64,000 nt of DNA from NCBI RefSeq assembly GCF_050920415.1, contig NZ_CP169309.1; one strand, 5' to 3'. A model generated the notes under the pieces. It was given only the letters and a program-made list of their open reading frames with translations. It ran no database searches and was not told the origin of the DNA. Shown in pieces: positions 8,772 through 9,271 of the stretch. The DNA is from Escherichia coli (GTDB taxonomy: Bacteria; Pseudomonadota; Gammaproteobacteria; Enterobacterales; Enterobacteriaceae). Each line of letters begins with the position of its first letter. Positions within the stretch are counted from its first letter, which is position 1. A program made the translations under genes and the position numbers.

Positions 8772-9202
8772 TGTCCTAATTGTGATCATATTTTACATAT
8801 CACGAATTTTATTATCTTTCTTGTTATTGAAACTGGTAATAACACAGTGGAATAATGGTTTTGTATCTTGAATATATATTAATTAATTTAATTGAGATTT
8901 AATCTTATCAATAAATAATTGCAAAATCATTATAAATTATCTCAGTGGTTTTTATATTCAATGCATTCACATTGATTATGATGTCTTTTCTTTTTTTTGA
9001 TAATGCGCATGTTTTTTTATTGAAAAGCGAGTGAGATATTCTGGTTGTGTATTGATTAATTAAATCTACATAAAGTCTTTAAGTATTGCTACATTGATTA
9101 TTTTTAAGGATAAGACCAACATAACGACACACCAGAGAATATCTGTTTACATTCTATGATTATTTGGGACATATGATGTTCAATGGTTAACTAAAAGCGT
9201 CA

Positions 9203-9230
9203 GACATAATATATACAATAATATTATGTC
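9203..9230. promoter_or_regulatory. Palindrome in the yfcV 5-prime region, candidate operator or leader hairpin
   Basis: gacataatat-atacaata-atattatgtc: perfect 10-bp inverted arms with an 8-bp spacer, about 40 bp upstream of the yfcV ATG. Confidence 0.3.
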
Positions 9231-9271
9231 AGTTGCTTGTATTATACATTTTAATGATTTAAGGACAAATA

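What the first reader, a model, noticed from the sequence alone, without database searches (positions are those of the whole stretch)
8772..9271. 500-bp AT-rich untranslated region upstream of yfcV with a 10-bp-arm palindrome
The sixA-yfcV spacer is unusually long and extremely AT-rich (runs such as ttaattaatttaattgagatttaatcttatcaataaataattg), typical of H-NS-silenced fimbrial control regions. At 9203..9230 there is a perfect palindrome gacataatat-N8-atattatgtc about 40 bp before the yfcV ATG; it could be an operator for a dimeric regulator or a 5-prime UTR hairpin. I found no fimS-like long inverted repeats that would indicate an invertible switch.
Basis: seen in the sequence. Interest (0 to 1): 0.4.

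Follow-up and report, generated by a model that had tools for sequence, protein, structure and literature searches.

The report
Leader hairpin upstream of yfc fimbriae
The AT-rich stretch is the ordinary, probably H-NS-silenced control region of the yfc fimbrial operon, and its perfect palindrome is most likely the tip of a stem-loop in the yfcV mRNA leader, kept in shape but not in sequence across E. coli lineages and related genera.

Summary
The sixA-yfcV spacer (8725-9271, 547 bp, 27% GC) is the most AT-rich 500 bp of the window. GACATAATAT-N8-ATATTATGTC sits exactly at 9203-9230, 41 nt before the ATG.

On its own the palindrome is only borderline: 5% of shuffled spacers hold one as good. 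Comparison is what makes it meaningful. The locus is in 5393 of 5426 complete E. coli genomes, in at least eight very divergent spacer families; the window's is rare (21 genomes). Every E. coli family has a long imperfect hairpin at the same place, between a conserved TTCAATGG box and the ribosome-binding site. The Salmonella and Citrobacter stfA leaders have an analogous one. Stem pairs covary, and stem and loop lengths differ between families. In the window/B2/E. albertii group, G·U pairs far outnumber A·C pairs on the yfcV-sense strand.

I read it as a 5' leader RNA stem-loop rather than an operator. Its function (mRNA stability, processing or translation) is inferred only.

There is no fimS-like or Pap-like switch. 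H-NS silencing is documented for the K-12 homologue and inferred here. A conserved promoter-like TTGnnn-17-CAnnAT (9094-9122) predicts a start near 9129.

Modest interest: a known kind of region with a new, untested leader element.

The parts
8734..8770 (+). sixA intrinsic terminator: stem-loop 8734-8762, then a T6 run at 8765-8770
   Evidence: RNA fold -18.8 kcal/mol, z -3.3, 0/200 shuffles as stable. It directly follows the sixA stop at 8724. The equivalent hairpin is conserved in the B2 allele.
8771..9093 (.). Distal AT-rich spacer: fast-evolving, presumed H-NS-bound silencing region, the counterpart of the K-12 'promoter island'
   Evidence: GC 21-30%; part of the lowest-GC 500 bp of the window. 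77% identity to the B2 allele, and not detectably alignable to K-12 by blastn. Substitutions among window-type strains cluster at 8877-9108. The K-12 homologue is a promoter island, an RpoD SELEX site flagged HNS and an RpoS SELEX site. Promoter-like hexamers at 8827-8856 and 8892-8919 are no more numerous than in shuffles (5 against 4.4).
9094..9122 (+). Candidate core promoter: -35 TTGATT (9094-9099), 17-nt spacer, -10 CAACAT (9117-9122). Predicted start about 9129.
   Evidence: TTGnnn-17-CAnnAT with fixed spacing, followed 5-7 nt later by the CAC(A/G)CCA..GAATA block, is found in 57 of 64 distinct upstream sequences covering all E. coli-type families. It is also in E. albertii and Pseudocitrobacter corydidari. 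TTG, A-11 and T-7 are invariant columns. This is an inference: no start-site data could be retrieved.
9128..9141 (+). Conserved block CACACCAGAGAATA, at the predicted 5' end of the leader
   Evidence: Invariant or near-invariant columns across four allele families and in all families. It is partly complementary to the box region 9176-9186 (9 of 11 positions). That pairing is not in the MFE fold, so it is only a lead.
9167..9169 (+). Invariant GGA in an otherwise variable stretch
   Evidence: G128, G129 and A130 are invariant in alignment A2. Function unknown; a link to CsrA is speculation.
9179..9186 (+). Conserved box TTCAATGG, immediately 5' of the hairpin
   Evidence: TTC[AG][AT]TGG is present in all 29 distinct sequences of A3 and in E. 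albertii.
9192..9241 (+). Leader stem-loop. Base stem 9192-9198 with 9235-9241; the MFE fold pairs 9195-9199 with 9234-9238; apical stem 9203-9212 with 9221-9230.
   Evidence: RNA fold -14.8 kcal/mol, z -3.47, 2/200 shuffles as stable. It appears in the MFE and centroid folds of the whole putative leader. Homologous hairpins exist in all allele families. The base stem is 92.6% paired, with pair 19-70 as AU:12 and GC:12. In the window/B2/E. albertii alignment, 90% of cells pair against 28-48% when the partner is slid.
9203..9230 (+). The reported perfect palindrome GACATAATAT-N8-ATATTATGTC, which is the apex of the stem-loop
   Evidence: Invariant in five window-type strains. Imperfect with an N6 loop in B2. 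E. albertii has GGTATAATAT-N6-ATATTATACT, which differs by two compensatory pair changes and one G·U.
9242..9274 (+). AU-rich linker, Shine-Dalgarno AAGGA (9261-9265) and the yfcV start codon (9272-9274)
   Evidence: TTTAAGGACAAATAATGAGTAAG is invariant in all alleles and was used as the scan pattern.
9241..9268 (-). Antisense promoter-like site TTGTCC-16-TATAAT. It overlaps the ribosome-binding site and would start a transcript running into the hairpin.
   Evidence: 10/12 consensus match. The -10 stays TAnAAT in the window, B2, K-12 and T3 alleles. It is a consensus match only, and such sites are expected in AT-rich DNA.

Best explanation
The 547-bp spacer is the control region of the yfc (StfA/YfcV-type) chaperone-usher fimbrial operon. 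It breaks down as follows:

- The sixA terminator (8734-8770).
- About 320 bp of fast-evolving, very AT-rich DNA that most likely serves as an H-NS silencing platform, as shown for the K-12 homologue.
- A better-conserved proximal ~180 bp holding a weak sigma-70-type promoter (TTGATT-17-CAACAT, 9094-9122; predicted start ~9129) and a ~143-nt leader.

The reported palindrome is the apical 10-bp stem of a ~50-nt stem-loop (9192-9241) in that leader. The stem-loop lies between a conserved TTCAATGG box and an unstructured AU-rich linker that carries the ribosome-binding site. It most likely acts in the yfcV-sense RNA, after transcription. It could work as a site of RNase processing or protection, or as a protein-binding site, that sets mRNA half-life or translation of the major subunit. 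It does not occlude the Shine-Dalgarno sequence.

Shown here: the anatomy; conservation of the hairpin's position despite sequence turnover; covariation; and a sense-strand G·U excess in the window's allele group.

Inferred: H-NS binding to this allele, the transcription start, and every statement about what the hairpin does.
For: Identity of the region:
- Synteny fadJ-sixA-yfcV-usher-chaperone-subunits-yfcO.
- The ORF is 82% identical to K-12 YfcV and matches Pfam Fimbrial.
- H-NS and silencing in K-12. Derepression by TosR and BolA overproduction.

Hairpin conservation:
- All 29 distinct sequences, from at least 8 diverged families, fold into a hairpin of -8.7 to -19.5 kcal/mol at the same place.
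- The base stem (A3 columns 14-20 with 69-75) is 92.6% paired. The ten pairs tested, which include three extension pairs at columns 33-35 with 66-68, are 86.6% paired against 32-52% when slid. Pair 19-70 is AU:12/GC:12, and pair 35-66 is CG:10/UA:7/UG:7.
- Total stem-loop length varies from 46 to 56 nt and the loop is N8 or N6. An RNA helix tolerates this; a fixed dimeric operator does not.
- E. albertii differs from the window within the palindrome by A-T to G-C and C-G to T-A.
- Salmonella and Citrobacter stfA (42-44% protein identity, at a different chromosomal site) carry an analogous ~18-bp hairpin 25-30 nt before the SD (z about -3.1 to -3.3), with an A-T/G-C swap between them.

Strand:
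- In the window/B2/E. albertii alignment, G·U fills 39 cells in 10 pair columns against A·C in 5 cells in 3 columns.
- The sense-over-antisense stability excess exceeds the composition control in B2 and T6.

Promoter:
- The invariant TTG, A-11 and T-7 at fixed 17-bp spacing in all families, and in P. corydidari at another locus, place the hairpin inside the transcript.
- The K-12 SELEX promoters further upstream would also transcribe through it.
Against: - No transcription start, H-NS occupancy or expression data exist for this allele, and start-site tables could not be retrieved.
- The palindrome alone is only a 5% event in shuffles.
- RNAalifold finds no consensus structure across all families, because the apical parts do not align.
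- Hairpin z-scores are weak in the T3, E69 and P. corydidari alleles (-0.3 to -1.6).
- The hairpin is the top local structure of the spacer in only about 4 of 10 families.
- The sense-over-antisense energy difference is explained by base composition in the K-12-type, E69 and P. vendiensis alleles. The window's own hairpin is symmetric (-14.8 against -14.4 kcal/mol).
- The shuffle control on the A4 alignment is not significant, and the independent lineages are few.
- The window type has an uncompensated A·G in the base stem where others have U-A.
- Compensatory changes in quasi-palindromes can arise from a single template-switch mutation, without selection.
Confidence: 0.5

Rival explanations
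1. The palindrome is a DNA operator for a dimeric transcription factor. Bound just upstream of the ribosome-binding site and downstream of the promoter, the factor would repress or activate yfc transcription.
For: Perfect 10-bp dyad symmetry. The window's hairpin is equally stable on both strands, so nothing in this allele alone argues for RNA. The arms are invariant among window-type strains. E. albertii changes both arms symmetrically, which a dyad site co-evolving with its protein could also produce.
Against: Spacing differs between close alleles (N8 against N6). The half-sites are degenerate in B2 (8-9 of 10 positions), with one-sided A-to-G changes that keep only RNA pairing. The half-site is absent in K-12, T3, T5 and T6, although a hairpin persists there. 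There is no second copy in 64 kb and no half-site enrichment. No regulator gene lies in or next to the operon. G·U outnumbers A·C 39 to 5.
Confidence: 0.1
2. The palindrome has no function. It is a quasi-palindrome of the kind that arises and is 'perfected' by template-switch replication errors in low-complexity AT-rich DNA, riding along in a silenced region.
For: 5% of composition-matched shuffles hold an equally good palindrome. The AT-rich spacer is full of short inverted repeats (38 pairs). The shuffle control in A4 is not significant. Z-scores are weak in several families. Template switching gives apparent double 'compensatory' changes in one step (established knowledge of quasipalindrome mutagenesis).
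Against: A hairpin persists at the same position in at least 8 families whose apical sequences no longer align, and in stfA leaders at 42-44% protein identity. The base stem is 92.6% paired; the ten tested pairs are 86.6% paired against 32-52% when slid. The strand-biased G·U excess is not expected from a DNA-level copying mechanism. The proximal 160 bp are far better conserved than the distal spacer.
Confidence: 0.2
3. The stem-loop is a leader terminator or attenuator. It would act as an insulator that stops transcripts from the upstream promoter-like sites, or read-through from sixA, before they reach yfcV, and would be relieved under inducing conditions.
For: It lies on the sense strand between the promoter-like region and the RBS and is followed by U-rich sequence, especially in K-12 (…GUUUAUAUUUUUAAUUAUUUAU). 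The K-12 spacer binds RNA polymerase but is transcriptionally unproductive (PMC3661553 abstract).
Against: The stem base is made only of A-U pairs, and in the window allele no U-tract abuts it (…GCUUGUAUUAUACAUUUU). The terminator scan found none on the + strand in 8600-9400. sixA has its own strong terminator.
Confidence: 0.1
4. The relevant transcript is antisense. A promoter overlapping the yfcV RBS (TTGTCC-16-TATAAT, 9268 to 9241 on the minus strand) makes an RNA that begins with the hairpin and interferes with yfcV expression, or is simply spurious.
For: 10/12 consensus match. The -10 stays TAnAAT in four allele families. The antisense hairpin is as stable as the sense one in the window and K-12 alleles. 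Spurious and bidirectional promoters are common in H-NS-bound AT-rich DNA (PMC3923964 and PMC8894471 abstracts).
Against: The -35 is conserved anyway because it is the reverse complement of the RBS. G·U pairs would be C·A mismatches in the antisense RNA, and in B2 the antisense fold collapses (-2.3 against -14.7 kcal/mol). In one column of the Forrest et al. start-site table, no plus-strand (antisense to K-12 yfcV) start lies between 2441309 and 2456878, but that table is truncated.
Confidence: 0.05

Closest known systems
H-NS-silenced cryptic chaperone-usher fimbrial control regions of E. coli, in particular the K-12 yfcV/sixA 'promoter island'
   Same: Same locus and synteny. Long spacer (547 bp here, 680 bp in K-12). 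Extreme AT-richness. The same conserved proximal islands: TTG-17-CAnnAT, CAC(A/G)CCA..GAATA, GGA, TTCAATGG and the RBS. The K-12 spacer is a listed promoter island, is flagged HNS in SELEX, and yfcV is derepressed without hns.
   Different: The window carries a rare allele (21 of 5426 genomes) that blastn cannot align to K-12 outside the conserved islands. Its promoter-like hexamer count does not exceed the composition-matched expectation. H-NS binding has not been measured for it.
Stem-loops in 5' untranslated leaders that control mRNA stability or processing (ompA 5' stabiliser hairpin; RNase III-cleaved leader hairpins such as pnp; processed papBA mRNA of P fimbriae). Recalled from established literature, not tested here.
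   Same: A ~15-20-bp imperfect hairpin in the leader of a highly expressed structural gene. The helix is conserved but the sequence is not, it does not sequester the SD, and it is followed by an AU-rich single-stranded linker.
   Different: With the predicted start at ~9129, the hairpin begins ~60 nt from the 5' end, so it is not a 5'-terminal stabiliser unless the RNA is processed. No cleavage, half-life or protein-binding data exist. Rfam has no matching family (best hit E = 0.34, far below its gathering score).
fimS invertible promoter element of type 1 fimbriae
   Same: An AT-rich regulatory spacer of a few hundred bp in front of a major fimbrial subunit gene.
   Different: No good flanking inverted repeats, no adjacent recombinase gene, and no inverted orientation among the spread-listed hits of the 1246 matching genomes.
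Pap-type Dam/Lrp phase-variation switch
   Same: yfc/stf belongs to the same broad group of chaperone-usher fimbriae as Pap (recalled from the literature), and the spacer is long and AT-rich.
   Different: Only one GATC in the whole spacer (window 8784). No papI/papB-like genes flank the operon.

Membership tests
H-NS-silenced AT-rich promoter region / 'promoter island' | AT content far above the genome average over several hundred bp | tested here: met
   25.6% GC in 8751-9250 against 51% for the window; the lowest 500-bp window of the 64 kb.
H-NS-silenced AT-rich promoter region / 'promoter island' | Unusually high density of promoter-like sites | tested here: inconclusive
   5 sites against 4.4 +/- 2.0 in dinucleotide shuffles. 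The density follows from composition. The original definition uses a different algorithm, which is not available here.
H-NS-silenced AT-rich promoter region / 'promoter island' | H-NS occupancy in vivo and derepression in an hns mutant | not testable with these tools
   Documented only for the K-12 allele. Two 8/10 matches to the H-NS high-affinity motif TCGATAAATT (recalled from the literature) lie at 8908 and 9052.
Cis-regulatory 5' UTR stem-loop (RNA) | Lies inside the transcribed leader | not testable with these tools
   Inferred from the conserved TTGnnn-17-CAnnAT at 9094-9122 and from the K-12 SELEX promoters further upstream. No start-site data could be retrieved.
Cis-regulatory 5' UTR stem-loop (RNA) | Base pairing conserved across homologues, with compensatory changes | tested here: met
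   A3: ten tested pairs 86.6% paired against 32-52% when slid, base stem 92.6% paired, AU:12/GC:12 at pair 19-70. A4: 90% paired against 28-48%. Two double changes between E. albertii and the window in the palindrome. Caveats: few independent lineages, no RNAalifold consensus, and the A4 shuffle control is not significant.
Cis-regulatory 5' UTR stem-loop (RNA) | Strand specificity (G·U tolerated, A·C avoided on the coding-sense strand) | tested here: met
   39 G·U against 5 A·C cells, in 10 against 3 columns. The energy asymmetry exceeds the composition control in B2 and T6 only, and is neutral for the window and K-12 alleles.
Cis-regulatory 5' UTR stem-loop (RNA) | Measurable effect on mRNA stability, processing or translation | not testable with these tools
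   Needs reporter fusions, Northern blots and RNase mutants.
Palindromic operator of a dimeric regulator | Dyad symmetry | tested here: met
   Perfect 10-bp arms.
Palindromic operator of a dimeric regulator | Half-site sequence and centre-to-centre spacing conserved in orthologous promoters | tested here: not met
   N8 against N6. Half-sites are degenerate in B2 and absent in K-12, T3, T5 and T6.
Palindromic operator of a dimeric regulator | Further copies of the site (a regulon), or a cognate regulator gene nearby | tested here: not met
   Unique in 64 kb with up to 3 mismatches. No regulator gene in the operon or its flanks. The whole genome was not searched.
fimS-type invertible switch | Inverted repeats flanking a ~300-bp promoter segment | tested here: not met
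   The best pair is 17 nt at 82% with 9 nt exact (8924-8940 / 9244-9260), not conserved in B2.
fimS-type invertible switch | Adjacent site-specific recombinase genes | tested here: not met
   The neighbours are fadJ, sixA and the yfc structural genes.
fimS-type invertible switch | Both orientations seen among sequenced genomes | tested here: not met
   The spread-listed hits among the 1246 matching genomes are collinear single pieces covering 93-99% of the query, apart from one 29% fragment. The 9 genomes with two places were not inspected.
Pap-type Dam/Lrp switch | Two GATC sites about 100 bp apart in the regulatory region | tested here: not met
   A single GATC, at window 8784 (L001 9060).
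Intrinsic terminator / attenuator | G+C-rich stem base immediately followed by a U-tract | tested here: not met
   The stem base is made only of A-U pairs and no adjacent U-run exists in this allele. The scan found none on the + strand.

The most novel reading that the evidence does not exclude
The yfc/stf fimbrial operons of Enterobacteriaceae carry an undescribed, structurally conserved leader RNA module: a conserved 5' block, a TTCAATGG box and a ~20-bp stem-loop just upstream of the RBS. It would be a dedicated post-transcriptional checkpoint, for example an RNase III or RNA-binding-protein target. It would help explain why these core fimbriae stay cryptic even when H-NS silencing is lifted.
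Probability: 0.3. Interest if true: 0.5.

Novelty: new member of a known kind. Interest (0 to 1): 0.3.

Why it matters
Yfc is one of the few chaperone-usher fimbriae present in almost every E. coli. yfcV is widely used as a marker of uropathogenic strains. Even so, its regulation is essentially unknown beyond H-NS silencing and derepression by overproduced TosR or BolA.

This work adds three things:
- The proximal ~180 bp hold a conserved weak promoter and a leader.
- The leader has a stem-loop whose shape, but not sequence, persists from E. coli to Salmonella stfA. That gives a concrete target for mutagenesis when asking how these 'cryptic' fimbriae are switched on.
- The operon and its control region are mosaic. 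The window's coding allele is 97.8% identical to a Pseudocitrobacter contig, while its spacer is closest to the B2 and E. albertii type.

If the hairpin proves inert, the region is simply one more AT-rich silenced fimbrial promoter.

Tried and rejected
- **Rfam.** A scan of 8000-10000 at permissive thresholds found nothing near any gathering score.
- **RNAalifold.** I therefore tested a named base stem instead.
- **'Sense more stable than antisense in 29 of 29'.** I first read this as proof of an RNA element. A composition control showed that most of the asymmetry in the K-12-type, E69 and P. vendiensis alleles is due to G+T richness. Only the B2 and T6 energies and the G·U/A·C count survive.
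- **Long-range pairing.** A pairing between block 9132-9142 and box 9176-9186 is 9 of 11 positions in all families. It is absent from the MFE fold and not recognisable in the stfA leaders, so I keep it only as a lead.
- **Leader peptide.** The ATG inside TTCAATGG opens 3, 8 or 30 codons depending on the allele and is ATT in T3, so I rejected it.
- **Start-site data.** Singh 2014 has no supplement held. The Forrest 2022 tables are truncated. Thomason 2015 is not held. The Cappable-seq supplement has no hit.
- **Other promoters.** Sigma-54, an RfaH ops element and promoters using TATAAA of the stem base were considered by eye and rejected for lack of matching elements.
- **fimS-like and Pap-like switches.** Tested and rejected.
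- **Clustering of substitutions.** The cluster at 8877-9108 among window-type strains could reflect constraint on the proximal part. It looks more like a recombination patch, so I do not count it as evidence.
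Full report
**What is in the sequence**

- The window carries fadJ (to 8036), sixA (8239-8724), a 547-bp spacer, and then a 186-codon ORF (9272-9832) followed by an usher gene.
- The ORF matches Pfam Fimbrial and is 82% identical to K-12 YfcV.
- A complete E. coli genome that is 100% identical over the spacer annotates the same order: sixA, fimbrial protein, usher, chaperone, three fimbrial proteins, and a StfH/YfcO adhesin marked as a pseudogene. K-12 has the same synteny.
- The spacer has 27% GC. Its core is the most AT-rich 500 bp of the 64-kb window (profile).
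- The palindrome GACATAATAT-N8-ATATTATGTC is exactly at 9203-9230, 41 nt before the ATG.
- The first ~45 nt of the spacer are the sixA terminator.

**Is the palindrome more than chance?**

- On its own, barely. 5% of 2000 dinucleotide-preserving shuffles of the spacer contain a perfect inverted repeat of at least 10 bp with a loop of 20 or less.
- It is unique in the window even with three mismatches allowed, and its half-site is not enriched.
- As RNA, the 61-nt segment 9187-9247 folds at -14.8 kcal/mol (z -3.5). The reverse strand folds almost equally well at -14.4, and the DNA hairpin is also above background.
- This allele alone therefore says nothing about the level at which the symmetry matters.

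**Comparative evidence: how variable the spacer is**

- The locus is present in 5393 of 5426 complete E. coli genomes, but the spacer is extraordinarily diverse.
  - The window's version is found at >=90% identity in only 21 genomes.
  - About 1220 genomes, including ST131, ST95 and other B2 strains, have a version 76-78% identical.
  - The K-12-type majority cannot be aligned by blastn outside the gene start.
- I collected representative alleles from complete genomes, from species representatives and from 120 metagenome contigs.
- This gave 47 distinct proximal sequences falling into at least eight families: window, B2, K-12, E. whittamii-like, T3, E69, T5 and T6, plus Pseudocitrobacter vendiensis.
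- Against this turnover a few islands are invariant:
  - TTG and CA..AT, 17 bp apart (window 9094-9122).
  - CAC(A/G)CCA..GAATA (9128-9141).
  - GGA (9167-9169).
  - TTC[AG][AT]TGG (9179-9186).
  - The RBS and start codon.

**Comparative evidence: the hairpin**

- In every family, the segment between the TTCAATGG box and the RBS folds into a long imperfect hairpin, -8.7 to -19.5 kcal/mol and usually 18-20 pairs.
- The base of the stem (TATAAAC…GTTTATA in K-12; TAAAAGC…GCTTGTA here) can be aligned.
  - It is 92.6% paired. The ten pairs I tested, which include three extension pairs, are 86.6% paired against 32-52% when the 3' partner is slid.
  - One pair is split AU:12/GC:12, and another is CG:10/UA:7/UG:7.
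- The upper part of the stem is not alignable between families, yet it is helical in each. Overall length ranges from 46 to 56 nt.
- The window's perfect palindrome is simply the upper stem of its family's version. It is invariant in five window-type strains and imperfect with a 6-nt loop in B2.
- In E. albertii it reads GGTATAATAT-N6-ATATTATACT. Relative to the window, that is two compensatory pair replacements (A-T to G-C, C-G to T-A) and one G·U.
- The StfA genes of Salmonella and Citrobacter are 42-44% identical to YfcV and sit after sspB, at a different chromosomal site. They also have an ~18-bp hairpin 25-30 nt before the RBS (z about -3.1 to -3.3), with an A-T/G-C exchange between the two genera.
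- P. corydidari shares the promoter-like motif and the RBS but has only weak hairpins.

**RNA or DNA, and which strand?**

- Variable helix and loop length argue against a fixed-geometry dimeric operator.
- My first strand test was confounded. Sense was more stable than antisense in 29 of 29 sequences, but shuffles show that composition alone gives 3-5 kcal/mol of asymmetry in the K-12-type, E69 and P. vendiensis alleles. The excess is significant only in B2 and T6, and marginal in T3 and T5.
- A cleaner count comes from the window/B2/E. albertii alignment. Over 20 pairs, 90% of cells pair against 28-48% when slid. G·U fills 39 cells in 10 columns, while A·C fills 5 cells in 3 columns.
- Neutral transitions should give G·U and A·C about equally, and a DNA or antisense function would disfavour G·U. 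This favours pairing in the yfcV-sense RNA.
- The evidence is suggestive, not conclusive: the lineages are few, and the shuffle control in A4 is not significant.

**Where transcription starts**

- The consensus scan finds only distal + strand promoter-like sites (8827-8856 and 8892-8919), at a density no higher than in shuffles. It also finds a strong-looking antisense site overlapping the RBS.
- The comparative footprint points instead to TTGATT-17-CAACAT (9094-9122). TTG, the -11 A and the -7 T are invariant, and the 17-bp spacing is fixed in all families, in E. albertii and in P. corydidari.
- This predicts a start near 9129, at the beginning of the conserved CACACC block, and a ~143-nt leader.
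- For K-12, genomic SELEX places RpoD and RpoS holoenzyme binding further upstream in the spacer. Those promoters would also transcribe through the hairpin.
- I could not retrieve experimental start sites.

**The AT-rich region as a silencer**

- The K-12 spacer is one of 78 'promoter islands'. These bind RNA polymerase and H-NS but are transcriptionally unproductive.
- It is flagged HNS in the RpoD SELEX table.
- yfcV rises by log2FC 3.53 in cells lacking hns.
- Yfc is described as a core, cryptic fimbria.
- yfcV is induced by overproduced TosR in CFT073 (B2 allele, log2FC 5.2) and by BolA.
For this allele it is a reasonable inference from composition only.

**What it is not**

- It is not a fimS-like switch. 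There are no convincing flanking repeats and no recombinase gene, and no inverted orientation appears among the listed hits of the 1246 matching genomes.
- It is not a Pap-like switch. The spacer has a single GATC and there are no papI/papB-like genes.
- It matches no Rfam family.
- It is not a convincing intrinsic terminator. The stem base is made only of A-U pairs and no U-tract abuts it.
- It is not a leader-peptide attenuator.

**Mechanism I commit to**

- The palindrome is the tip of a stem-loop in the yfcV mRNA leader that acts after transcription.
- It leaves the RBS and an AU-rich linker single-stranded, so it is unlikely to mask translation initiation directly.
- Its conserved ~20-bp helix with small internal loops is the kind of substrate that double-strand-specific processing or a structure-specific RNA-binding protein would recognise.
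- My best guess is control of mRNA half-life or processing for the major-subunit message.
- I put about 0.5-0.6 on 'functional sense-RNA hairpin' and much less, about 0.25, on any specific downstream mechanism.
- The main rival, at about 0.2, is that it is a non-functional quasi-palindrome maintained by template-switch mutation. An operator or an attenuator is each about 0.1.

**Verdict**

- The general interpretation (an H-NS-type silenced fimbrial control region, with no invertible switch) is right and already known for the K-12 homologue.
- The palindrome is better explained as part of a conserved leader stem-loop than as an operator.
- That element appears not to have been described: nothing turned up in the literature searches. 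It is a modest addition of a familiar kind.

Noticed in passing
window 9232-15723; L021 8078-14572: The window's yfc operon is 97.8% identical over 6.5 kb to a Pseudocitrobacter vendiensis contig. It is 95.2% identical to a metagenome contig (L065) whose sixA is only 86.5% identical. Only 21 of 5426 E. coli genomes carry this allele. Upstream of ~9232 the spacers differ. This suggests exchange of the fimbrial operon between genera, with a breakpoint at the leader hairpin.
   Followed up: partly
window 8877-9108: Among window-type strains, 27-37 differences cluster in this 230-bp patch (12-15%), while 9109-9271 has 0-1 and 8725-8876 has 0-5. It looks like a recombination patch inside the spacer. 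The single proximal change (9198 C to T) turns a G-C pair of the stem into G·U.
   Followed up: partly
window 9842-9870: A strong hairpin, CCCCCATAGC…GCTATGGGGG followed by AUUUUGG, sits right after the yfcV stop and before the usher gene (-21.7 kcal/mol, 0/200 shuffles as stable). It is the usual partial terminator that lets the major subunit be made in excess.
   Followed up: partly
window 838-2037 (minus strand): An AT-rich (31-33% GC) 399-codon orphan ORF lies between mlaA and fadL. It is annotated hypothetical, with no Pfam or PADLOC match. It is absent from the ST131 locus, where mlaA and fadL are adjacent. This is probably a small horizontally acquired insertion.
   Followed up: partly
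window 14876-15721 (L001 15152-15997): The StfH/YfcO-family adhesin gene at the end of the operon is annotated as a pseudogene with an internal stop in the genome identical to the window. The operon may therefore not make a functional tip adhesin.
   Followed up: no
L003 10199-13623; L013 1-329; L005 1501-2774: The locus is often damaged in other strains. IS1 splits the usher gene in an ST131 genome. IS1 sits in the spacer ~70 bp upstream of where the match begins in isolate 624. yfcV and the usher 5' end are deleted in strain Z1323HEC0355, leaving only the spacer up to about window 9121.
   Followed up: no
window 9132-9142 and 9176-9186: The two best-conserved leader islands are mutually complementary (CCAGAGAATAT against ATGTTCAATGG; 9 of 11 positions in every family, with C-G in K-12 where the window has U-A). 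This could be a second helix closing a ~35-nt loop that holds the invariant GGA. It is not in the MFE fold and not recognisable in the stfA leaders.
   Followed up: partly
L143, L144, L145 (positions 600-1200): The stf operons of Salmonella, Citrobacter and P. corydidari sit after sspA-sspB, behind a similarly long (~570-660 bp) and AT-rich (27-30% GC) spacer. The long AT-rich control region therefore travels with this fimbrial family and is not a property of the sixA locus.
   Followed up: partly
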